From contig DASUUK010000024.1 of assembly GCA_036374135.1 (NCBI GenBank), forward strand, positions 17,305-81,304: 64,000 nt of DNA, read 5' to 3'. Below the pieces are notes generated by a model, which was not told where the DNA came from, did no database searches, and was given only the letters and a program-made list of their open reading frames with translations. Shown piece after piece: positions 5,651 through 35,816 of the stretch. Within the stretch, counting starts at the first letter, position 1; each line of letters begins with the position of its first letter. This stretch comes from Euzebyales bacterium (GTDB lineage: Bacteria; Actinomycetota; Nitriliruptoria; Euzebyales; JAHELV01). The translations under genes were made by a program, and so were the position numbers.

Positions 5651-7015
5651 CTAGGAACGGACCAGCGCGAGCACCTCGTCGCGGATGGCGGCCATCGTCT
5701 CGGCGTCGGTGGCTTCGACGTTGAGGCGCAGCATCGGTTCGGTGTTCGACGGGCGGACGTTGAACCACCAGACACCCGACGAGACGGTCAGGCCGTCAGC
5801 GTAGTCCGCGTCGCCACGGTCGGCGAACGCGTCAGCGACGGTGATGACCGCGGCGTCGGCGTCGGCGACCCGGCTGTTGATCTCGCCCGACTGCACGTAC
5901 ACGTCGTACGGGGCGACCATCTCGGCGAGTGAACCACCGTGGGCGCTGAGCGCCTCGAGGAGGATCAGCGCGGCGATGAGGCCGGAGTCCGCACGGAAGT
6001 TGTCCCGGAAGTAGTAGTGGCCGGAGTGCTCGCCCCCGAAGATCGCGCCCGTCTCCGCCATCACCGACTTGATGTAGGAGTGGCCGACCCGCGTGCGCAC
6101 CGGGCGTCCACCGGCGCGTCGGATGGTCTCCGGCACGATGCGCGAGCAGATCAGGTTGTACAGCACCGGCGCACCCGGATCGCGCGCGAGCATGCGCTCG
6201 GCCGCGACCGCGGTGACCAGTGACGGTGACACCGGCCGGCCTGCGCCGTCGACGCAGAACATGCGGTCGGCGTCGCCGTCGAAGGCCAGGCCGATGTCAC
6301 ATGCGTCGGCGCGCACCAGCGCCGTCAGGTCGGCGAGGTTCTCCGGCTCGATGGGACTGGCCGGGTGGTTGGGGAACGTCCCGTCGAGCTCGAAGTACAA
6401 CGGCACCAGCTCGAACGGCAGCGGGCCGAACACCGCGGGCACGACGTGGCCGGCCATGCCGTTACCCGCGTCGACGGCGACACGCAGCGGCCGCAGGACC
6501 GTCGTGTCGACGAAGCTGCGCACGTGGGCGGCGAAGTCGTCGAGCACGTCGATCTCGCGATGGCCGCCCTCCCGCGGCGCCGCAGCGAACCGGCCGGCGG
6601 CGGCGCGGTCACGGATGCGTCGGAGGCCGGTGTCGAAGGCGACGGGCTCGGCGCCGGCACGGCACAACTTCAACCCGTTGTAGCCGGCGGGGTTGTGGCT
6701 GGCCGTCACCATGACGCCCGGCAGATCCAGGTGGCCGGACGCGTAGTACAGCATGTCGGTCGACGCCAGCCCCAGGTCGATGGTGTCCACTCCCTGGGCG
6801 CGGGCGCCACGCATCACCGCGTCCGCGAGCACCGGTGAGCTGGGGCGCATGTCCCGACCCACGAGCATGCCCGACGCCGCCAACTCGACCGCGGCGGCCC
6901 GGCCGATCAGGTGTGCGAGGTCCGTGTCGAGCTCGGACGGAACGAGGCCCCGGACGTCGTAGGCCTTGACGACCCGATCGAGCCTCACCGACGGGTCAGC
7001 ATTGGTCACGGACAC
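5651..7015 (-). CDS. manB: Phosphomannomutase/phosphoglucomutase
   Basis: 454 aa. It has the active-site loop VMVTASHNPAGYNGLK, the metal loop AFDGDADR and the sugar-binding GGEHSGHYYF. Confidence 0.92.
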   Translation of the reverse strand: MSVTNADPSVRLDRVVKAYDVRGLVPSELDTDLAHLIGRAAAVELAASGMLVGRDMRPSSPVLADAVMRGARAQGVDTIDLGLASTDMLYYASGHLDLPGVMVTASHNPAGYNGLKLCRAGAEPVAFDTGLRRIRDRAAAGRFAAAPREGGHREIDVLDDFAAHVRSFVDTTVLRPLRVAVDAGNGMAGHVVPAVFGPLPFELVPLYFELDGTFPNHPASPIEPENLADLTALVRADACDIGLAFDGDADRMFCVDGAGRPVSPSLVTAVAAERMLARDPGAPVLYNLICSRIVPETIRRAGGRPVRTRVGHSYIKSVMAETGAIFGGEHSGHYYFRDNFRADSGLIAALILLEALSAHGGSLAEMVAPYDVYVQSGEINSRVADADAAVITVADAFADRGDADYADGLTVSSGVWWFNVRPSNTEPMLRLNVEATDAETMAAIRDEVLALVRS

Positions 7016-7028
7016 CGACCGCCGGGCA

Positions 7029-7583
7029 TCACGTAGGCCGGCTGCGTGTCAACGCGACCACAACGCCGCGGGATTCCGGCTCGATCGGCATCTGCAGCTG
7101 GCCCTGCAGCTCGAAGGCCTCGTCGTCGAGCAGCGTGCGCGTGACCGGCTCGTAGGGGTGCCCGGTTCGGCGCTCGACCGCCCGTGCATCCTCAGCCGAC
7201 GGACCGCCGGCCGCCGTCGGCGCCAGGTTGTCGACCGACGGGGAGGACTGCTCGGGCCCGGGTGGCTCCTCCGCGGCCGCGCCGACACCCCACGCCTCGG
7301 CCAGACGCGGCAGCGCGGCCGTCAGGGCCGCATAGCGATCGGGACCGGGGTTCGACGACGGCGGGTCCGGCGGCACCTGGGGGTCGGGTTCGGGTGACCG
7401 CGTCCGCCGGTCGAGGCGTTCCCATCCGCGCGGCACGATCAGGACGTCGGCGTGCGCCGCACACAGGTCGTAGAACGCGGGGTCCTTGTCCTCGGACAGG
7501 TCGACGAGCGACGCCTGGCGCGCGTCGTACCGGAACGACAGCGTCACCGTCGCCGCCTGCTGACATCCCGCTCGCTGGCACAT
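7029..7583 (-). CDS. DUF3499-like protein (Cys-rich N-terminus, Pro-rich tail)
   Basis: MCQRAGCQQAATVTLSFRYD...YDLCAAHADVLIVPRGWERLD resembles the DUF3499 family found next to manB in actinobacteria. The start is uncertain. The track ORF extends to 7718, but that extension has poor GC3 and contains a hairpin. Confidence 0.7.
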   Translation of the reverse strand: MCQRAGCQQAATVTLSFRYDARQASLVDLSEDKDPAFYDLCAAHADVLIVPRGWERLDRRTRSPEPDPQVPPDPPSSNPGPDRYAALTAALPRLAEAWGVGAAAEEPPGPEQSSPSVDNLAPTAAGGPSAEDARAVERRTGHPYEPVTRTLLDDEAFELQGQLQMPIEPESRGVVVALTRSRPT

Positions 7584-7693
7584 CCGTTGGGCTGCGGGAG
7601 CGACTGCCCCGCCCTGAGCTCCATGGAACCAGGCGCCGCCCGGGTGGTCCTTGGCCAGCGGAGCCGTTCCTCGACGTGTCGCGTGCAACAGGG

Positions 7694-7725
7694 CCCCGCG
7701 GATGTCGTGATCACTCATCGCGGGG
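7694..7725 (-). terminator. GC-rich hairpin (CCCCGCG-N18-CGCGGGG) downstream of the DUF5719-like gene
   Basis: A 7-bp inverted repeat is seen directly at 7694-7700 / 7719-7725, followed on the minus strand by CCCTGTTGC. Its position between a stop (7800) and the next start fits an intrinsic terminator or attenuator. Confidence 0.35.
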
Positions 7726-7799
7726 CAACAGTAGACGACCCACCGGTCGATTCGGGCGAACCGCCACCATCAGCGGCGGAGAGCGGTCGGGCACGCACT

Positions 7800-9308
7800 C
7801 TACCGGTCCTGCTGCGCCGGGAAGTCGACCGGCCGGGTCCCCAGGGTCTCGTCCCGACGTGGGATCGGCGCGTCCTGCGAGCCCTCCCAGGTGTTCGCGG
7901 GGACGAGCGGCAGGGTCAGCAGGCAGCTCACCCGCTTGCTGCCGGCGAGGCGCAGGGTGGCGTACAGCGGCTGATCGGCGGACACGGTGACGGGCGCGCC
8001 GCCGTCGGTGACCCCCGCCTGCGCGAACGGCAGGAGGCGCATCTCGCCCGCTGCGATCTCGAGGGCGTCCCACCCCTCGGGCGCGACGCCCGAGGCGCTG
8101 GCGGTGGCCGTGACCGGTGTGGAGCCGGCGTTGTACAGCGCGAGTGCAGGACCCGTGCCACCGGGCGCTGTCGCCGCGACGCTGGTCTGATCGGCCTCAG
8201 GGATCCCGGCCAGCGAGGTCACGGCGGCGTCGTCACCGCTCCTGGCGACGAAGCTGGTCGCGACGAAGCCGACGTCGTTGGTCGACGTCACCGTCACACC
8301 GAAGGTCGACTTCGACGACAGTCCTTCGAGCTCGATCCGCTCGACGCTCTCGGGCCCGACGACCACCTCCTGCGCCACGGCCTCCGCGGCGACCTCGTCG
8401 CTGGCGCTCACCTCGAGCTCGGCGGAGCGGGTGTTCGGGTTCAGGACGGTGATCCACGACGCGTTGCGCTCGTCGGCGGCCGCGTATGCGAACCCGGCGG
8501 AGGTCGCGTCGGACGGTTGCGCCTGCAGCACGGTCCGTCCCGCCGGCGCACCGGTGTCGCTGGACACCCCGGCTCCGTCGAGCTCGATGTCCGGCAGATC
8601 CGGTTGACCGAACTGCTGCACACCGGTGGCGATGACCCGGCCCGCGTCGACCTCGACGATCACGCCGAGGTCGGGTTGCTCGGGTTGTAGATCGCTCACA
8701 TCCACCGCGATGACGTCACGGGCGGGCACCGACAGGTTCTCGCTGGACACCAGGTTGACCCGCCCCTCGGGTGTGGCGAAGGCGACACGCGCGACGGCGT
8801 CGGAGTCAAACGGGTTGAACAGGTAGACGCGCGTGCTTGATCCGATGACGGTCGAGGCACCGCTCAGCAGCCAGCGGGGCGCGGGACTGGGGGTGCACGA
8901 GTCGCCCAGGCGGTCGCCTCCACGCCCCTCCACGTTCCACGAGGCGGTCGCGGGCCCGCCCCGCCAGCGGATCTCCACGGCGGGCGGACGCCTGCCGCCG
9001 TCGATCTCGATCTCCTCGGTGTCGCCCGGTTCGAGCTGGCGGGGCTCACCCAGATCCTCGACCTGACCGCCACCCACGCTGGCGACGGTCACCCGTGACG
9101 TGTCCTCACCCGCGGCCGCGACGGTCAGCGTGGCCGTCTCGCCGTTGCGCGCGATCGGGACGCAGTACCACGCGCCGCTGTTGACGTCGATCTGCTCGGC
9201 GAACGTCGCGGACGGCGGCTCGGGTGCCGCGACGACGCGGTCGGCGGCCACCGTTGCGCCAACCAGCAACGCGAGAACGGTCAGGACGAATGCGATCTGC
9301 CGGCTCAT
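7800..9308 (-). CDS. Secreted/anchored protein of unknown function, DUF5719-like
   Basis: 502 aa. It has an N-terminal hydrophobic signal/anchor (IAFVLTVLALLVGATVAA) and Ala/Val/Gly/Thr-rich beta-type sequence with no catalytic motif. GGGGAG lies 7 nt upstream of the ATG. It sits directly downstream of the giant GT2. Confidence 0.6.
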   Translation of the reverse strand: MSRQIAFVLTVLALLVGATVAADRVVAAPEPPSATFAEQIDVNSGAWYCVPIARNGETATLTVAAAGEDTSRVTVASVGGGQVEDLGEPRQLEPGDTEEIEIDGGRRPPAVEIRWRGGPATASWNVEGRGGDRLGDSCTPSPAPRWLLSGASTVIGSSTRVYLFNPFDSDAVARVAFATPEGRVNLVSSENLSVPARDVIAVDVSDLQPEQPDLGVIVEVDAGRVIATGVQQFGQPDLPDIELDGAGVSSDTGAPAGRTVLQAQPSDATSAGFAYAAADERNASWITVLNPNTRSAELEVSASDEVAAEAVAQEVVVGPESVERIELEGLSSKSTFGVTVTSTNDVGFVATSFVARSGDDAAVTSLAGIPEADQTSVAATAPGGTGPALALYNAGSTPVTATASASGVAPEGWDALEIAAGEMRLLPFAQAGVTDGGAPVTVSADQPLYATLRLAGSKRVSCLLTLPLVPANTWEGSQDAPIPRRDETLGTRPVDFPAQQDR

Positions 9309-30565: not shown

Positions 30566-30729
30566 GGCACCTCCAACCTTCGCCCGTTCTGACCGCAGGC
30601 TACCGTCGGGACCCGCGCTCCGGGCGCCGCGGGCCGGACGCCATCGGGACGCTCGCCGTGCCGCTCATGTCCGTCGGTGACGCCGCGACCACGCGCCAGC
30701 GCGGCGCCACCACCTAGACTCCGGTCGCC

Positions 30730-31965
30730 GTGCGCCGTCTGCAGCCGTTCAGACACGCCGTGCGACGGATGCTGTCGCACTGGTCGGCGGAGCGTGCCAC
30801 ATTGCGGCAGGGCGTGACGGCGTTGACGATCTGCATCACCGTCACGCTGTTCGCCGGCATCATCCTCGGTGGGATGGAGGGCACGCTGGCCGACACGCCG
30901 GGGCTGCTCGTGCTGGTGCCGTCGGCCATCGGCATGCGCGGAGCGATCTTCGGCGCGCTGGGCGCCCGACTGGGAACCGGCATGTTGATGGGCCAGTTCA
31001 CGACGGATCTGCGACGCGGCAGCTTCCTCGCCGACAACATCGAGGCGGCGCTGCTGGTGTCGCTGTCGACCGCCGCGCTGACCGGTGCGCTGGCGGCCGG
31101 CTCGTCCGCCCTGTTCGGGCTCCAGGCCGTCGACGTGTTCCAACTGGTGATCGTCTCGGCGGTCGGCGCGGTGCTGTCGAGCGCGGTCGTTCTCGCGGTC
31201 ACGCTCGCGCTGGCCCGCACCGCGCAGGCGCGCAGCTGGGACATGGACGCCATCGGAACGCCGGTGATCAGCGCGACCGCCGACATCTCGACGCTGCCGG
31301 CGCTGCTGCTCGGCGTGCTGCTGCTCGGTTCACCGATCGTCCACGTGGTCCTCGGTGGAGCGCTGATCGTGGCGGCGGTCGTCGCCGCCGTCTACGGCGT
31401 GCGCCATCCCAGCCCGCTCGCACGCACGATCGTGCGCGAGAGCACGCCCGTGCTGTGCTACGCGGCGGTGATGGGTGTGCTGGCGGGAACCGTGCTGGAG
31501 ACGCGGTTGGACACGCTGATCGCCGATCCCGCCCTGCTCGTCGCGATCCCGCCGTTCATCGCCTCGTCGGGCGCGCTCGGTGGCATCCTCTCGGCCCGCC
31601 TGTCCTCGCAGCTGCACACCGGTCTGCTGCAGCCGGACCGCGCGCCGAGCGGGAGGGCGATGCTGGAGGGCAGCATGACCGTCCTGCTGGGGCTGATCGG
31701 CTTCACGGTCGTGGGGCTCGCGACGCGGGTGGGCGCCGCGGTGTTCCGCATCAGCTCGCCCTCCACGGCGGCGCTGGTGGGTGCCGTGGACATCGGTGGC
31801 CTGCTGTCGATCGCAGTGGTGTTCGTGGTCGCGTACTACGCCGCCACCGCGTCGTACCGGTTCGGGCTCGACCCCGACACGTCGAGCATCCCGATCGTCA
31901 CATCGAGCATCGACTTTCTCGGCATCCTCTGTCTTGTGATCGGCATCGCAGTGGTAGGACTCTGA
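30730..31965 (+). CDS. MgtE/SLC41-like divalent-cation channel, two transmembrane repeats, no cytosolic N/CBS domain
   Basis: Two copies of the MgtE TM signature are present (PSAIGMRGAIFGALGARLGT and ASSGALGGILSARLSSQLHT, each followed by D..G/T.P.I.). GTG start. The whole protein is hydrophobic. Confidence 0.8.
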   Translation: MRRLQPFRHAVRRMLSHWSAERATLRQGVTALTICITVTLFAGIILGGMEGTLADTPGLLVLVPSAIGMRGAIFGALGARLGTGMLMGQFTTDLRRGSFLADNIEAALLVSLSTAALTGALAAGSSALFGLQAVDVFQLVIVSAVGAVLSSAVVLAVTLALARTAQARSWDMDAIGTPVISATADISTLPALLLGVLLLGSPIVHVVLGGALIVAAVVAAVYGVRHPSPLARTIVRESTPVLCYAAVMGVLAGTVLETRLDTLIADPALLVAIPPFIASSGALGGILSARLSSQLHTGLLQPDRAPSGRAMLEGSMTVLLGLIGFTVVGLATRVGAAVFRISSPSTAALVGAVDIGGLLSIAVVFVVAYYAATASYRFGLDPDTSSIPIVTSSIDFLGILCLVIGIAVVGL

Positions 31966-31970
31966 TACTC

Positions 31971-32006
31971 ATGACCTCAAGTAGCGAAGCGGCAGGTCAC
32001 GACCTG
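31971..32006 (+). repeat. Copy A of a 36-nt element ATGACCTCAAGYAGCGAAGCGGYAGGTCACGACCWG
   Basis: Identical at 33 of 36 positions to 43145-43180. It contains the hairpin TGACCT-N16-AGGTCA, and two of the three differences fall in the loop. It starts 5 nt after the MgtE-like stop codon and opens a 22-codon ORF (31971..32039) ending TAGTG on the next gene start. Confidence 0.8.
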
Positions 32007-32038
32007 ACGTCACGTAGCGCAGCAGTGGGTCACGTGTA

Positions 32039-33241
32039 GTGCGCAACCTCAAGGAGCTGCTGACCGACGCCAAGGACGCGTCGGAACTGATGGTGGACCT
32101 GGCCTACGCCGCGGTCTTCTTCGACGACGACGACCTGGCGCGTGAGGTGATCCACCTCGAGGAGCGAATGGACCAGGCCGTCCGCGAGATGCGCATCGTG
32201 TGCATGCTCGCGAGCCGTTCGCCGGACGACGCCGAGGACATGGCCGCCATCCTCGGCATGGCCAACTCCATGGAGGAGATCGCCGACGCCGCCGAGGACA
32301 TCGCCAGGGTCGTGCTCAAAGACCTCGGCGTGCCCAGCGAGCTGCGCGACGACCTGCGCCACGCCGAGGAGGTGATGGCGCGGGTCAAGCTGCGGGACGG
32401 CAACGAGCTGGCCAACCGCACGCTGGCTGACGCCATGCTGCCCAGCGAGACGGGCATGTGGATCATCGCCCTGCGCCGCGACGTCGATTTCGTCTACGGC
32501 CCGGACGGCGACTTCGTGCTGGCCGACGGCGACGTCCTGATCCTCCAGGGACCACGCGACGGTGTCGACCTGGTCCGCGAGCTCGCCGGCGGCGACGCGT
32601 TCGGCCTACGCCCTCCCGCCGAGCAGGCCCGGCTGTCGAACCTCGACCGCGCGGTCGACCTGCTCGTCGAGCTCAAGAACATCGCCGAGGTCGCGGTCGG
32701 CATGGCCTACTCGGCGATCCTGTTCCGCGACGCGGGTCTGGCCTCCGAGGTGGGCCGGCTCGAGGACCGGTGTGACGACCTGTACCACGACCTGCAGCGC
32801 TGGGTGCTGCGGGCGGCGAGGGATCTGGACGACGACGACATCGATGAGTTGCGCGGACTGATGCAGATCGGGCAGTCCAGCGAGCGCATCGCCGACGCGG
32901 CGCAGGAGATGACACGTGTCGCGGAATCCGACGACGACCCGCACCCGGTCATCGCCGCCGCGCTGGCCGAGGCGGACGAGATCGTCAGCGATGCGATCGT
33001 CAACGAGGGATCGACCGCGGAGGGGCGCAGCCTGCGCGAGCTGACCATCGAGACCGAGACCGGGATGTACGTGCTGGCGATCCACCGCGGAGGACGGTGG
33101 ATCTACCGGCCCCGCGGCTACCGGGCGCTCGAGATGGGCGACCGTCTGCTGGCGACCGGTCCGGAGGAGGGCGTGGAACTGCTGCGGGAGCTCACCGGCG
33201 ATCCGCGACCGGCAGTCACCGAGGATGCCTTCGGCGCCTGA
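32039..33241 (+). CDS. Tandem PhoU-like / TrkA_C (RCK C-terminal) domain protein
   Basis: 400 aa built as 2 x [PhoU-like helical bundle (ASELMVDLAYAAVFF.., IAEVAVGMAYSAILF..) + TrkA_C (..GDVLILQGPRDGV.., ..GDRLLATGPEEGV..)]. GTG start at 32039. Confidence 0.8.
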   Translation: MRNLKELLTDAKDASELMVDLAYAAVFFDDDDLAREVIHLEERMDQAVREMRIVCMLASRSPDDAEDMAAILGMANSMEEIADAAEDIARVVLKDLGVPSELRDDLRHAEEVMARVKLRDGNELANRTLADAMLPSETGMWIIALRRDVDFVYGPDGDFVLADGDVLILQGPRDGVDLVRELAGGDAFGLRPPAEQARLSNLDRAVDLLVELKNIAEVAVGMAYSAILFRDAGLASEVGRLEDRCDDLYHDLQRWVLRAARDLDDDDIDELRGLMQIGQSSERIADAAQEMTRVAESDDDPHPVIAAALAEADEIVSDAIVNEGSTAEGRSLRELTIETETGMYVLAIHRGGRWIYRPRGYRALEMGDRLLATGPEEGVELLRELTGDPRPAVTEDAFGA

Positions 33242-33295: not shown

Positions 33296-34078
33296 TCAGC
33301 GGTACCGCACGTGGTGCACATCGCCGGCGTGCACGACCACGACGGCACGGCCGGTGTCGACCACCAGCCCGCCGTCGGCGCCGACGCCCGCAGCCGTGCC
33401 ATCGATCGCCGCGCCGTCGACCTGCTCGACGCGCACCGTCGCCCCCAGCGTCGCGCAGCGTTCACGGTAGGCCGGCAGGAAGCCCGTCGGGTCCGCCAGC
33501 CACGCGTCGTAGCGCACGTCCAGTCGTTCGATCAGCGACGGGAGCAGGCGCCAGCGGTCCACCGCGCCCCACCCGACCTCGGACAGCGACGTCGCGTCCA
33601 CAAGTTCGGCGGGGCGCTCGACGTCCCGCCAGTCGACGTTGACCCCGATCCCGGCGACGACCATGTCGGCGGATGGCACCTCGACGAGGATCCCCGCGCA
33701 CTTGCGTGCATCGGCCAACAGGTCGTTCGGCCACTTCAGGCTCAGCTGCGCACCCGACACGTTCTGCTCGCACGCCTCGGCCAGTGCCAGCCCGATCAGC
33801 AGTGGCAGCAGCGCGACCTGGGTGAGCGGCCGCTCCGGACGCAGCAGCAGCGAACCCATCAGCGACGTTCCCGGCGGCGCCGTCCACCGGCGACCCTGCC
33901 GTCCCCGGCCCGTGGTCTGCTCATCGGCCAGCACCAGCAACCCGGCCTCGGCACCGCCGGCCGCCCGGCGCGCCACCTCCGCGTTCGTCGATCCGATGCT
34001 GTCGAACCACAGCACGTGCGAGATCAGCGTCGGTCCGGTCACGAGGTGCTGCAGCACACTGCCCGGCGGTTGGCTCAC
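33296..34078 (-). CDS. birA: Biotin--[acetyl-CoA-carboxylase] ligase
   Basis: ADEQTTGRGRQGRRW, KWPNDL and CAGILVE are BirA motifs. The start is placed at GTG 34078 after GGAGGGGG. ATG 34162 is an alternative, and the track ORF (to 34372) overlaps pccB. Confidence 0.85.
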   Translation of the reverse strand: MSQPPGSVLQHLVTGPTLISHVLWFDSIGSTNAEVARRAAGGAEAGLLVLADEQTTGRGRQGRRWTAPPGTSLMGSLLLRPERPLTQVALLPLLIGLALAEACEQNVSGAQLSLKWPNDLLADARKCAGILVEVPSADMVVAGIGVNVDWRDVERPAELVDATSLSEVGWGAVDRWRLLPSLIERLDVRYDAWLADPTGFLPAYRERCATLGATVRVEQVDGAAIDGTAAGVGADGGLVVDTGRAVVVVHAGDVHHVRYR

Positions 34079-34259
34079 GACCCCCTCCACACGCTCGACA
34101 CACCAGACGCTACCTTGCCCGACGCCGCCGCGGTCGTGGTGACCCGTGTGCCGTGCGAGCATGACGTGGCGCCCGGTCGTGGCCGGTGCGGACACAATGT
34201 GCAGCCGTAGCTGGACGTGACCACGTGCTGCGGGGCAGTCATCGGCGAAAGGCGATGCG

Positions 34260-35816
34260 TTGACGGACACGACCGCCGAGAAGCTCGCCGAGCTGCGCCG
34301 CCGCATCCACGAGGCGGAGCATGCGGGCAGCGAGCGCGCCATCGCCAAACAGCACGAGAAGGGCAAGCTCACCGCCCGCGAGCGCCTCGACCTGCTGCTC
34401 GATCCCGGATCGTTCGTCGAGCTCGACAGCCTCGCCGTGCACCGTGCCCGGGGGTTCGGCGTCGAGGACCGCAGGATCTACGGTGACGGCGTGGTCACCG
34501 GGTACGGAACGGTCGACGGTCGGCAGGTCGGCGTGTTCAGCCAGGACTTCACCGTGTTCGGCGGCTCGCTGGGCGAGGTGTTCGCCGAGAAGATCTGCAA
34601 GGTCATGGACATGTGCGTGCGCATGGGCGTGCCCATGATCGGCATCAACGACTCCGGTGGCGCCCGCATCCAGGAGGGCGTCGTGGCGCTGGGTGGCTAC
34701 GGCGAGATCTTCTTCCGCAACGTCCAGGCGTCCGGCGTCATCCCGCAGATCTCGGCGGTCATGGGTCCGTGCGCGGGGGGTGCGGTCTACTCCCCGGCCA
34801 TGACGGACTTCGTCCTGATGGTCCGCGAGACGTCGCACATGTTCATCACCGGTCCGGAGGTGATCAAGACCGTCACGGGCGAGGACGTGTCGTTCGAGGA
34901 GCTGGGCGGCGCCATGGCGCACAGCACACGGTCCGGCGTGGCCCACGTCGCGGCAGACGACGAACAGACCTGCCTCGACGACATCCGGTTCCTGCTCGGC
35001 TACCTGCCGCAGAACAACCTGGAGGATCCACCGCGCCTGCCGGCCACCGATGACCCGGAACGGCTGGACCCCGGCCTGGACGGCTTCATGCCGGACTCGG
35101 CCAACGTCCCCTACGACGTGCGCGAGATCGTCGCTCGCGTCGTCGACGACGGCGAGTTCTTCGAGGTGCACCCGCACTGGGCGCCCAACATCGTGGTCGG
35201 CTTCGCGCGCCTGGACGGCACGTCGGTCGGCATCGTGGCGAATCAGCCGATGCACCTGGCCGGCGTGCTCGACACCGAGTCGTCGCAGAAGGGGGCACGG
35301 TTCGTGCGCACGTGCGACGCCTTCAACATCCCGATCGTGACCTTCGTCGACGTCCCGGGGTTCATGCCCGGCACGGACCAGGAGTGGGGCGGCATCATCC
35401 GCCACGGCGCCAAGCTGCTGTACGCCTACTGCGAGGCCACCGTGCCCAAGCTGACGGTCATCCTGCGGAAGGCCTACGGCGGGGCGTACGACGTGATGGG
35501 CTCCACGCACGCGGGCGCCGACATGAACTACGCGTGGCCGACCGCCGAGATCGCGGTCATGGGCGCGCAGGGCGCCGTCAACATCCTGCACCGCCGGGAG
35601 CTCGCGGCGGTGCAGGATGTCGACGCGGCACGCGCCGCCTTCGTCGCGCAGTACCAGGCCGAGCTGGCGAACCCGTGGCGCGCGGCCGAGCGCGGCTACC
35701 TCGACGCGGTGATCGAGCCCTCCGAAACCCGACCCAAGCTGGTCAAGGCGCTGCACCTGGCCAGCACCAAGCGGGTGCAGCGCCCCCCGCGCAAGCACGG
35801 CAACATCCCGCTGTGA
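34260..35816 (+). CDS. pccB: Acyl-CoA (propionyl/acetyl) carboxylase carboxyltransferase beta subunit
   Basis: 518 aa with carboxyl_trans motifs ([47 protein letters not shown]). TTG start. Confidence 0.93.

What the first reader, a model, noticed from the sequence alone, without database searches (positions are those of the whole stretch)
30730..33241. Channel-only MgtE/SLC41-like protein paired with a separately encoded tandem PhoU-TrkA_C protein
Canonical bacterial MgtE carries its own cytosolic N-domain and CBS pair, which sense Mg2+ and gate the pore. This protein consists only of two transmembrane MgtE repeats, an SLC41-like pseudo-dimer in one chain. The next gene encodes 2 x (PhoU-like + RCK/TrkA_C ligand-binding domain) with no membrane segment. 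The pairing suggests that gating has been outsourced to a soluble regulator acting in trans. The ion specificity and the ligand of the TrkA_C domains are unknown.
Basis: partly seen in the sequence, partly recalled or inferred. Interest (0 to 1): 0.55.

Follow-up and report, generated by a model that had tools for sequence, protein, structure and literature searches.

The report
Two-part MgtE-type channel with separate regulator
A magnesium-channel-like membrane protein that lacks its usual built-in sensor is encoded next to a separate soluble sensor-like protein, and the same pairing recurs across Actinomycetota and many archaea, suggesting how sensor-less channels of this family (which includes human SLC41) might be controlled.

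Summary
ORF 30730-31965 (+) is made only of two MgtE transmembrane repeats: an 11-helix, SLC41-like pseudo-dimer with the pore Asp kept in both repeats. ORF 32039-33241 (+) is a soluble, very acidic 2x(PhoU three-helix bundle + TrkA_C) protein.

The pairing is not chance. In 75 of 76 assessable actinobacterial loci chosen by the channel, the regulator lies directly downstream. In 38 of 60 assessable metagenome loci chosen by the regulator, an MgtE-only channel is nearby (37 within 361 nt). Seven of 12 archaeal loci checked individually also carry the pair.

Genes are fused or split differently between lineages, yet every complete paired locus has exactly two MgtE TM domains and two PhoU-TrkA_C units. 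Both duplications look ancient.

The most likely reading is a two-component divalent-cation (probably Mg2+) channel whose cytosolic gate is a separate subunit. Physical binding, gating, ion and ligand remain inferred. I could not model the complex, found no natural fusion, and about a third of regulator loci have no adjacent channel.

No paper in the searchable library describes the pairing. I rate it a new variant of a known kind, of moderately high interest.

The parts
30713..30720 (+). Conserved CCTAGACT (-10-like TAGACT at 30715-30720), 9 nt upstream of the GTG start. Probable promoter of a near-leaderless mRNA.
   Evidence: Invariant in the window and in L001-L003, while the surrounding DNA has diverged. 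Its function is inferred.
30730..31965 (+). Channel gene: a tandem MgtE TM-TM (SLC41-like) protein of 411 aa. Alternative starts are 30760 (GTG) and 30769 (ATG, the database call, 398 aa).
   Evidence: Pfam MgtE x2 with no N or CBS domains. AF2 model pLDDT 90.7. Fold match to the TtMgtE TM domain 4U9L/4U9N, TMt 0.66-0.71, prob 1.00.
30769..31320 (+). MgtE repeat 1 (five TM helices). PX6G-A motif at 30919-30945. Pore Asp D172 (398-aa numbering) at 31282-31284.
   Evidence: Model helices, repeat alignment with TtMgtE, coordinates verified. D172 is invariant in 62 homologs.
31333..31401 (+). Linker transmembrane helix joining the two repeats, giving 11 TM helices in all.
   Evidence: Helix 189-211 in the AF2 model. 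The positive-inside pattern of the loops was read from the sequence.
31414..31953 (+). MgtE repeat 2 (five TM helices). PX6G-A motif ending at 31575. PDx4Px6D motif with pore Asp D382 at 31912-31914.
   Evidence: D368, P369, D370, P375 and D382 are invariant.
31966..32038 (+). 73-nt intergenic spacer, with short imperfect palindromes only and no terminator-like site.
   Evidence: In 68 related pairs the spacer ranges from -4 to +148 nt, with a median of about 8 nt.
32039..33241 (+). Regulator gene: a soluble, acidic (pI 4.3) 2x(PhoU three-helix bundle + TrkA_C/RCK_C) protein of 400 aa.
   Evidence: Pfam. PDB 1VCT (PH0236) at E=3e-37. AF2 model pLDDT 83, pTM 0.85. Fold search. pI.
32048..32317 (+). 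N-terminal PhoU-type three-helix bundle. Conserved E36, E41xxxD45 (32144-32173) and E79xxxD83xxxD87 (32273-32299).
32369..32584 (+). N-terminal TrkA_C (RCK_C) domain. Family-wide conserved E111, G139, R147, P155, D165, G171.
32639..32926 (+). C-terminal PhoU-type three-helix bundle. Conserved E237, E242xxxD246 and E282xxxD286.
32981..33196 (+). C-terminal TrkA_C (RCK_C) domain.

Best explanation
The two genes form an operon for a two-component MgtE/SLC41-type divalent-cation channel, most likely for Mg2+.

Gene 1 makes the pore. It is one chain with two MgtE transmembrane domains joined by a linker helix (11 TM, N-terminus inside). It stands in for the homodimeric pore of canonical MgtE and keeps the pore aspartate in both repeats.

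Gene 2 makes the cytosolic regulatory module that canonical MgtE carries in cis as its N and CBS domains. It is a pseudo-dimer whose two PhoU-type three-helix bundles pack into one six-helix PhoU-like core, each followed by an RCK_C domain.

Proposed mechanism (inferred): one regulator docks on the conserved cytosolic loops of one pore. Cations bind its acidic surface and its PhoU-type ExxxD sites, and possibly a second ligand binds the RCK_C domains. This changes its conformation and closes or opens the pore, giving feedback control of cation entry.

Shown here: domain content, folds, conserved pore residues, conserved operon and neighbourhood across two domains of life, and the constant 2:2 domain count.

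Inferred: physical binding, gating, direction of regulation, ion and ligand.
For: - Domains and folds.
- Pore residue: TtMgtE D432 aligns with invariant D172 and D382.
- Channel-selected synteny: 75 of 76 assessable loci in Nitriliruptoria and Rubrobacteria have the regulator directly downstream on the same strand. Spacers range from -4 to +148 nt. The pair is also present in Thermoleophilia.
- Regulator-selected synteny: 38 of 60 assessable metagenome loci have MgtE-only genes nearby, 37 of them within 361 nt.
- Archaeal loci with the pair: T. zilligii, Palaeococcus pacificus and T. profundus, Halobaculum, ANME-2, Nitrososphaerota and a Bathyarchaeota-type archaeon.
- Constant stoichiometry through different gene fusions and fissions: TM-TM with a double regulator, TM-TM with B1 and B2, or TM + TM with a double regulator. 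In the metagenome set there were 22 fused, 11 split and no other count among complete cases.
- Both duplications look ancient: regulator N-halves mostly cluster with archaeal B1 and C-halves with B2, and channel units partly separate into repeat-1 and repeat-2 types.
- The regulator is more conserved than the channel: mean pairwise distance 0.39 against 0.48, with distances correlated at r=0.93.
- The regulator is strongly acidic in Actinomycetota and archaea, pI 4.2-4.7.
- ExxxD motifs are conserved family-wide. E. coli PhoU binds Mn2+/Mg2+ with a conformational change (Gardner 2014, as cited in PMC12301784).
- Other Mg2+ genes lie nearby in two archaea: corA in Halobaculum and mgtC in ANME-2.
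- No known riboswitch is present that could supply regulation instead.
Against: - No complex model could be made, so no interface is predicted.
- No natural channel-regulator fusion was found among odd-length family members.
- 22 of 60 assessable regulator-selected loci lack a channel within at least 1.5 kb, and 5 of 12 individually checked archaeal loci (including P. horikoshii and P. furiosus) lack one within 4-5 kb. I could not test whether a channel is encoded elsewhere in those genomes.
- One actinobacterial locus (L010) has the channel without the regulator.
- The Asn of the PX6GN motif is Ala in both repeats, so selectivity or conduction may differ from TtMgtE.
- The distance correlation is confounded by shared phylogeny.
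- The unit trees are neighbour-joining without bootstrap support, and several archaeal units are misplaced or unresolved.
Confidence: 0.55

Rival explanations
1. The two proteins work in the same pathway, but the regulator does not gate the pore. Like PhoU in the Pst/PhoR system, it would report cation or transporter status to another target such as a kinase, transcription factor or enzyme. Alternatively it could buffer or chaperone metal ions.
For: - The core has a PhoU-like six-helix fold.
- PhoU is known to contact both a transporter and a sensor kinase (PMC12301784).
- About a third of regulator loci have no adjacent channel, and Pyrococcus keeps the B1-B2 pair without a neighbouring MgtE.
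Against: - No recurrent alternative neighbour (kinase, regulator or other transporter) was found next to unpaired regulators.
- The strict 2:2 domain count through independent fusions and fissions fits a stoichiometric complex better than a diffusible signal.
- Spacers are very short or overlapping.
Confidence: 0.15
2. The membrane protein is a secondary carrier rather than a channel, for example a Na+/Mg2+ exchanger as reported for SLC41A1, or it carries another cation such as Co2+, Ni2+ or Mn2+. The regulator would then control efflux or exchange. This overlaps with the best explanation on partnership and differs on transport mode and substrate.
For: - The protein has the tandem SLC41-like architecture.
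- SLC41 proteins are reported as Na+/Mg2+ antiporters, and MgtE as a non-selective cation channel (PMC9276622).
- The Asn of PX6GN is replaced by Ala in both repeats.
- The family is too divergent for profile searches to reach crystallised MgtE.
Against: - Each repeat superimposes on the channel-type TtMgtE TM domain.
- The Mg2+-coordinating Asp is invariant in both repeats.
- Nothing here distinguishes a channel from a carrier.
Confidence: 0.2
3. The regulator is a structural or assembly subunit needed for stability or membrane insertion of a pore that lacks a soluble domain, with no ligand-dependent regulatory role.
For: - Short MgtE variants lacking the N and CBS domains could not be stably purified alone (bioRxiv 10.1101/2025.05.26.656215).
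- The regulator is the more conserved partner.
Against: - RCK_C and PhoU folds are ligand- or metal-binding regulatory modules in the characterised systems matched here.
- The acidic ExxxD motifs are conserved family-wide, which suggests ligand binding rather than scaffolding alone.
Confidence: 0.07
4. The adjacency is lineage-specific hitch-hiking with no functional link.
For: One channel locus lacks the regulator (L010), and many regulator loci lack the channel.
Against: - The pairing recurs in three actinobacterial classes and at least five archaeal lineages.
- It recurs in different orientations and gene orders: co-directional, divergent, regulator first or regulator last.
- The surrounding genes differ between these loci.
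Confidence: 0.03

Closest known systems
Canonical bacterial MgtE (Thermus thermophilus; PDB 2YVX, 2ZY9, 4U9L)
   Same: - Same pore-domain fold per repeat (TMt 0.66-0.71).
- The P(D/A)x4Px6D motif and the pore Asp (D432 equivalent) are conserved in both repeats.
- An acidic cytosolic module is present in the system.
   Different: - No N or CBS domains in the channel chain.
- The pore is one chain with two repeats plus a linker helix instead of a homodimer.
- The Asn of PX6GN is Ala.
- The presumed sensor is a separate PhoU/RCK_C protein with an unrelated fold.
- Sequence and profile searches do not reach TtMgtE.
Eukaryotic SLC41A1-3
   Same: Tandem MgtE repeats in one chain, no CBS domains, and a doubled motif set (PMC9276622).
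   Different: - Orthology was not tested because no SLC41 sequence or structure was available here.
- I know of no PhoU/RCK_C partner for SLC41 (own knowledge).
- SLC41 proteins are reported as Na+/Mg2+ exchangers.
Prokaryotic TM-only and TM-TM MgtE classes (Zhao et al., bioRxiv 10.1101/2025.05.26.656215)
   Same: This protein belongs to the 'TM-TM' architecture class noted in that preprint.
   Different: - The preprint does not mention any partner protein or PhoU.
- The 2022 review states that double motifs occur only in Archaea, choanoflagellates and metazoa. Here they are in Actinomycetota.
PH0236 of Pyrococcus horikoshii (PDB 1VCT, 2BKN, 2BKO, 2BKP; structural-genomics entries)
   Same: Each half of the regulator is a homolog: E=3e-37 and 36% identity by sequence, TMt 0.84-0.86 and rmsd 2.4 A by structure.
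   Different: - PH0236 is a single unit encoded in tandem with a paralog. The window protein is the fusion of two such units.
- PH0236 has no assigned function, and no paper on it is in the searchable library.
- In P. horikoshii no MgtE gene lies within 4 kb.
PhoU of the PstSCAB/PhoR phosphate system
   Same: - The two three-helix bundles of the regulator together superimpose on six-helix PhoU (TMt 0.63-0.71).
- ExxxD-type acidic motifs are conserved.
- PhoU is a transporter-associated regulator that binds Mn2+/Mg2+.
   Different: - The regulator scores far below the PhoU equivalog cutoff (39 against 130 bits).
- It carries two RCK_C domains.
- There are no pst genes nearby, and its partner is an MgtE-type channel.
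Trans-acting RCK subunits (KtrA/KtrC with KtrB/D, TrkA with TrkH, KhtT with KhtU)
   Same: - A soluble RCK_C-containing subunit encoded beside its membrane partner regulates transport in trans.
- RCK_C fold matches include KhtT with c-di-AMP (7AGV), BusR and MthK.
- RCK_C is the c-di-AMP-binding domain in those K+ systems (PMC10636490).
   Different: - No RCK_N (Rossmann) domain.
- The partner is not a K+ pore.
- The RCK_C domain is attached to a PhoU bundle.
- The ligand is unknown.

Membership tests
MgtE/SLC41 superfamily (Pfam PF01769) | Significant match to the MgtE transmembrane-domain model | tested here: met
   83.2 bits against a gathering cutoff of 27.6, in two stretches.
MgtE/SLC41 superfamily (Pfam PF01769) | Five-helix TM fold of the MgtE pore domain | tested here: met
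   Foldseek match to 4U9L/4U9N: prob 1.00, TMt 0.66-0.71 over about 189 columns.
MgtE/SLC41 superfamily (Pfam PF01769) | P(D/A)x4Px6D motif with the pore Asp (TtMgtE D432) | tested here: met
   Repeat 1 reads D-M-D160-x4-P165-x6-D172 (Met in place of the first Pro). Repeat 2 reads P369-D370-x4-P375-x6-D382. Both terminal Asp residues are invariant.
MgtE/SLC41 superfamily (Pfam PF01769) | PX6GN motif | tested here: not met
   Pro and Gly are kept, but Asn is Ala in both repeats (A59, A269). Archaeal relatives keep N or S.
MgtE/SLC41 superfamily (Pfam PF01769) | Mg2+ (divalent cation) transport activity | not testable with these tools
   Needs complementation or flux assays.
Canonical bacterial MgtE (N-CBS-TM homodimer) | Cytosolic MgtE_N and CBS-pair domains in the same chain | tested here: not met
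   No such Pfam or NCBIfam hit. The model is entirely transmembrane helices.
SLC41-like tandem architecture (TM-TM) | Two MgtE repeats in one chain joined by an extra TM helix (11 TM) | tested here: met
   Internal repeat E=3e-17. Model has 5 + 1 + 5 helices.
SLC41-like tandem architecture (TM-TM) | Orthology with eukaryotic SLC41 | not tested
PH0236-type PhoU-TrkA_C proteins (COG3273-like) | PhoU three-helix bundle followed by a TrkA_C domain, soluble | tested here: met
   Pfam. 1VCT at E=3e-37. TMt 0.84-0.86. No hydrophobic segment.
PhoU (phosphate signalling complex protein, TIGR02135) | Score above the equivalog cutoff, and pst operon context | tested here: not met
   39.1 bits against a cutoff of 130.25. 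No pst genes flank the operon. Only the fold resembles PhoU.
TrkA/KtrA-type RCK gating subunits | RCK_N Rossmann domain plus RCK_C, partnered with a K+ pore | tested here: not met
   Only TrkA_C is present. TrkA equivalog scores 32 bits against a cutoff of 374. The neighbour is an MgtE-type protein, not a K+ pore.

The most novel reading that the evidence does not exclude
An ancient, mainly archaeal two-component Mg2+ channel in which a PhoU-fold/RCK_C hetero- or pseudo-dimer is the missing cytosolic gate of CBS-less MgtE/SLC41-type pores. It would dock 1:1 on the pseudo-dimeric pore, with repeat 1 and repeat 2 matched to the N and C units. It would couple cytosolic Mg2+, sensed at PhoU-type ExxxD sites, to a second signal bound by the RCK_C domains, for example a nucleotide such as c-di-AMP. 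This would be a new regulatory principle for the MgtE/SLC41 family and the first functional role for the PH0236 protein family.
Probability: 0.4. Interest if true: 0.75.

Novelty: new variant of a known kind. Interest (0 to 1): 0.6.

Why it matters
How MgtE/SLC41-type transporters without CBS domains are regulated is flagged as an open question in the field's own review, which calls for comparative genomics coupled to experiments (PMC9276622).

This locus and its relatives offer a concrete, testable candidate: a separately encoded PhoU/RCK_C subunit. It occurs in culturable organisms (Rubrobacter, Thermococcus, Palaeococcus, Halobaculum), and half of the regulator already has a crystal structure (1VCT).

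It would also do the following:
- Assign a role to a structural-genomics orphan family now annotated as "potassium channel protein".
- Correct the statement that tandem MgtE repeats are absent from Bacteria.
- Extend the theme of trans-acting RCK regulators from K+ to divalent-cation transport.

Tried and rejected
- **Fused complex model:** I planned an AF2 model of channel-linker-regulator with a paired alignment. The script output was truncated, and the tool only accepts window or P-id sequences, so I did not submit it. No interface prediction exists.
- **Direct link to solved MgtE:** phmmer and a 20-sequence profile of the channel against PDB sequences found no MgtE. The link needed the Halobaculum single-domain homolog as a bridge plus the fold search.
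- **Riboswitch:** Rfam found nothing in the whole window at gathering thresholds and nothing credible near the operon. I rejected M-box or c-di-AMP riboswitch control.
- **Natural fusions:** odd-length hits from the 1.84-billion-protein search (P0470, P0362, P0479 and others) contain only PhoU/TrkA_C. The 300-aa tail of P0470 is low-complexity K/E/A-rich sequence. No fusion to MgtE was found.
- **Metagenome scan:** a 10-sequence regulator alignment was too diverse, so I repeated the scan with 6 sequences.
- **Database annotations:** I rejected "potassium channel protein" because there is no pore or RCK_N domain. I rejected "PhoU / phosphate transport regulator" as membership because of the sub-threshold score and the absence of pst genes.
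- **P. horikoshii neighbours:** the two upstream genes of PH0236 are not MgtE.
- **Literature:** searches for PH0236, COG3273/COG1824, K07244/K07228, 'mgtE-like transporter' and MgtE+PhoU/RCK found no description of the pairing.
- **Alternative partner:** I found no recurrent alternative neighbour in the unpaired regulator loci.
Full report
**1. Observation**

The window is about 70% G+C. Its best protein match is to a Euzebyales (Actinomycetota) metagenome-assembled genome. Two co-directional ORFs lie at the reported coordinates.

ORF A (30730-31965, +, 411 aa) matches only the Pfam MgtE transmembrane model, in two stretches (E=2.3e-23). It has no MgtE_N or CBS domain and no NCBIfam hit. ORF B (32039-33241, +, 400 aa) has two PhoU and two TrkA_C matches. 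Its highest 19-residue hydropathy mean is 1.28, so it has no membrane segment.

Both proteins are internal duplications. The halves of A are 25% identical over 179 aa without gaps (E=3e-17), and the halves of B are 33% identical (E=2e-35). The genes are 73 nt apart with no + strand terminator-like site between them.

**2. The channel**

AlphaFold2 with 62 homologs gives a confident all-helical model (pLDDT 90.7, pTM 0.87). It has five long helices, a single linker helix (residues 189-211 in 398-aa numbering) and five more long helices. The only structurally meaningful PDB matches are the T. thermophilus MgtE TM-domain crystals 4U9L and 4U9N (prob 1.00, target-normalised TM 0.66-0.71, about 189 columns). 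Each repeat is therefore an MgtE pore domain, and the chain is an 11-TM pseudo-dimer of the kind proposed for SLC41.

The family is very divergent. Neither phmmer nor a family profile reaches any PDB MgtE. A single-domain haloarchaeal homolog bridges to TtMgtE (E=8e-4). In the resulting alignment, TtMgtE D432 corresponds to D172 in repeat 1 and D382 in repeat 2. Both are invariant in 62 homologs. D432 is the Mg2+-coordinating pore residue according to my own knowledge of the TtMgtE literature. The P(D/A)x4Px6D motif is present in both repeats, with Met in place of the first Pro in repeat 1. In the PX6GN motif, Asn is replaced by Ala in both repeats.

**3. The partner**

The first half of B matches PDB 1VCT/2BKN-P, 'hypothetical protein PH0236' of Pyrococcus horikoshii (E=3e-37). 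The AF2 model of B (pLDDT 83, pTM 0.85) superimposes per half on 1VCT (TMt 0.84-0.86, rmsd 2.4 A). Across both halves it superimposes on full-length six-helix PhoU proteins (1T72, 4Q25, 1XWM, 2I0M; TMt 0.63-0.71 over about 300 columns). The two three-helix bundles therefore appear to pack into one PhoU-like core, each followed by an RCK_C domain. The RCK_C domains match MthK, KhtT with c-di-AMP, BusR, GsuK and TrkA.

B is not a PhoU or TrkA equivalog (39 against 130 bits, and 32 against 374 bits). It is very acidic (pI 4.3; 87 D/E against 43 K/R), as are its actinobacterial and archaeal relatives (pI 4.2-4.7).

Across 26 regulator units from Bacteria and Archaea, the conserved residues fall in two groups:
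- In the PhoU bundle: E36, E41xxxD45, E79, and several others.
- In the RCK_C domain: E111, G139, R147, P155, D165, G171.

E. coli PhoU binds Mn2+/Mg2+ with a conformational change (Gardner et al. 2014, as cited in PMC12301784).

**4. Is the pairing conserved?**

Channel-selected test. A scan of one genome per GTDB species returned 80 loci from Nitriliruptoria and Rubrobacteria with 38-84% channel identity. Of the 76 loci with any sequence downstream of the channel, 75 carry the regulator directly downstream on the same strand. L010 is the only exception. In 68 complete pairs the spacer runs from -4 to +148 nt, with a median of about 8 nt; start codons were chosen heuristically. A Thermoleophilia contig also carries the pair.

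The regulator is more conserved than the channel in nearly all of these loci. Mean pairwise distance is 0.39 for the regulator against 0.48 for the channel. The two distance matrices correlate at r=0.93, although that figure is confounded by shared phylogeny.

Regulator-selected test. Eighty metagenome loci were chosen with a regulator alignment (42-97% identity to an ANME-2 protein). The outcome was:

| Outcome | Loci |
|---|---|
| MgtE-only gene(s) nearby (37 within 361 nt, 1 at about 2.9 kb) | 38 |
| No MgtE gene, with at least 1.5 kb on both sides | 22 |
| Not assessable (short flanks) | 20 |

That is 63% of assessable loci. The unpaired loci fall into a few lineage-specific synteny groups, mostly with housekeeping neighbours, and have no recurrent alternative transporter.

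Individually checked archaeal loci:
- **Paired (7 of 12):** T. zilligii, Palaeococcus pacificus and T. profundus (MgtE-only gene divergent to the regulator genes); Halobaculum roseum; ANME-2; Nitrososphaerota; and a Bathyarchaeota-type archaeon with one gene between.
- **Unpaired within 4-5 kb (5 of 12):** P. horikoshii, P. furiosus, one Thermococcus genome (L085), an unnamed archaeon (L092) and a Bathyarchaeota genome. tblastn found no hidden MgtE gene in these loci.

**5. Constant 2:2 architecture**

The genes are arranged differently in different lineages:

| Lineage | Channel | Regulator |
|---|---|---|
| Actinomycetota, ANME-2, Bathyarchaeota-type | one TM-TM gene | one double gene |
| Thermococcales | one TM-TM gene | two overlapping single-unit genes (B1, B2; 39% identical) |
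| Halobaculum, Nitrososphaerota | two single-TM genes of about 186-189 aa | one double gene |

Among the regulator-selected loci with a channel, 22 had a fused TM-TM gene, 11 had two adjacent single-TM genes, and 5 were cut by a contig end. No complete locus had any other count.

Neighbour-joining trees of single units give the following picture:
- Regulator N-halves mostly cluster with Thermococcales B1, and C-halves with B2. Two Bathyarchaeota units are misplaced.
- Channel units from Actinomycetota, ANME-2 and Halobaculum separate into repeat-1 and repeat-2 types. Thermococcales, Bathyarchaeota and one Nitrososphaerota unit are not cleanly resolved.

Both duplications therefore appear older than the fusions and fissions. 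The trees have no bootstrap support, so this is suggestive only. A fixed 2:2 count kept through independent gene rearrangements is what a stoichiometric complex predicts.

**6. Distribution**

An exhaustive search of 1.84 billion representative proteins finds a modest regulator family: 1,138 clusters at E≤1e-3 and 167 at E≤1e-30. Full-length doubles of about 390-430 aa dominate the top hits. Named cluster members come from ANME-2/Methanosarcinales, Nitrososphaerota/Aigarchaeota, Bathyarchaeota and Thermoleophilia.

The closest archaeal relatives found for the window proteins are ANME-2 proteins: 36% identity over the full channel and 41-42% for the regulator. The system thus looks mainly archaeal, with an outpost in three actinobacterial classes. 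Ancient horizontal transfer is my inference and was not tested.

**7. Mechanism (inferred)**

Canonical MgtE is gated by its own acidic N and CBS domains, which bind cytosolic Mg2+ (bioRxiv 10.1101/2025.05.26.656215). KtrAB, TrkAH and KhtTU use trans-acting RCK subunits (PMC10636490). PhoU modulates the Pst transporter. By analogy with these systems, I propose the following:
- One regulator docks on the cytosolic face of one pore. The conserved cytosolic elements there are the N-terminal HWxxERxTLRQG segment, the TM2-3 loops and the TM4-5 loops that carry the PDx4P motif.
- The regulator closes or opens the pore when cations bind its acidic ExxxD sites.
- The RCK_C domains either transmit the change or bind a second ligand.

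c-di-AMP is a speculative candidate ligand. RCK_C is its binding domain in the K+ systems, and B. subtilis MgtE is listed as a c-di-AMP target with unknown effect. Weak support for Mg2+ as the substrate comes from corA next to the Halobaculum operon and mgtC near the ANME-2 pair. No known riboswitch is present.

**8. Comparison with what is known, and novelty**

Tandem TM-TM prokaryotic MgtE proteins are noted in a 2025 preprint, which mentions no partner protein. A 2022 review states that double-motif forms occur only in Archaea, choanoflagellates and metazoa, that they lack CBS domains and 'might be differently regulated', and it calls for comparative genomics. PH0236 is a structural-genomics entry with no paper in the searchable library. 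Six literature searches found no description of an MgtE with PhoU/TrkA_C pairing. The library omits many subscription-journal papers, and neighbourhood databases such as STRING or COG may already show the link.

I classify this as a new variant of a known kind: an MgtE/SLC41-type channel with a trans-encoded regulatory subunit of the PhoU/RCK_C type.

**9. Caveats**
- No interface prediction or experiment was possible.
- No natural channel-regulator fusion was found.
- About a third of regulator loci lack an adjacent channel.
- The Asn-to-Ala change in PX6GN leaves selectivity and transport mode open.
- The unit trees lack support values.

**10. Verdict**

The full two-component gated Mg2+ channel model has confidence of about 0.55. 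Interest is 0.6.

Noticed in passing
window 30713-30732: CCTAGACT (a -10-like TAGACT) and the GTG at 30730 are invariant in the window and its three closest relatives, while the flanking DNA has diverged. All four stay in frame from this GTG to the conserved HW motif. This suggests a near-leaderless mRNA, and that the database start (30769, 398 aa) is too short.
   Followed up: partly
window 30676-30711: A 12-nt inverted repeat (GGTGACGCCGCG ... CGCGGCGCCACC, 92% complementary, 12 nt apart) lies just upstream of the -10-like element. It could be an operator. It is not clearly conserved in L001-L003.
   Followed up: partly
window 33296-34372 (-) and 34260-35816 (+): A BirA-like biotin ligase ORF and a propionyl-CoA carboxylase beta-like ORF are divergent, and their longest ORFs overlap by about 113 nt at the 5' ends. 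The N-terminal ~100 residues of the BirA ORF look non-coding, so its true start is probably internal. Both functions were assigned by eye from the translations and were not tested.
   Followed up: no
L010 (WHTC01000091.1, Nitriliruptorales MAG), 1309-2502: This is the only assessable actinobacterial locus where the channel has no PhoU-TrkA_C gene within 6 kb downstream. There are no Ns in the contig.
   Followed up: partly
L024 (SLAN01000093.1, labelled Spirochaetales MAG): A 2.7-kb contig carries the channel-regulator pair at 43% and 63% identity to the window, typical of the Nitriliruptoraceae loci in the same set. This is probably a mis-binned contig rather than a spirochaete gene.
   Followed up: no
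L054 (CAWEUK010000003.1), 6248-8374: Both the channel and the regulator match in several broken pieces (5 HSPs for the regulator). This suggests frameshifts, from either assembly indels or pseudogenisation.
   Followed up: no
L081 and L084 (P. horikoshii, P. furiosus), about 3.6-4.3 kb downstream of the B1-B2 pair: A gene of about 303-305 aa combining MazE/AbrB-type and PhoU domains lies nearby on the opposite strand. It is a second PhoU-domain protein in the same neighbourhood.
   Followed up: no
L088 7454-8440 (Halobaculum roseum plasmid) and L089 from 8093 (ANME-2): Other Mg2+-related genes lie close to the pair: corA is convergent and adjacent in Halobaculum, and an MgtC-domain gene lies about 3 kb away in ANME-2.
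   Followed up: partly
L109, L110, L112, L113 (metagenome), about 280-370 nt downstream of the regulator, opposite strand: In one lineage that lacks an adjacent MgtE gene, a conserved ~340-aa multi-pass membrane protein of unknown family lies next to the regulator. It is not detected by the channel HMM.
   Followed up: no
P0470 (692 aa, metagenome representative): A double PhoU-TrkA_C protein carries a ~300-aa low-complexity K/E/A-rich C-terminal tail with no Pfam match.
   Followed up: partly
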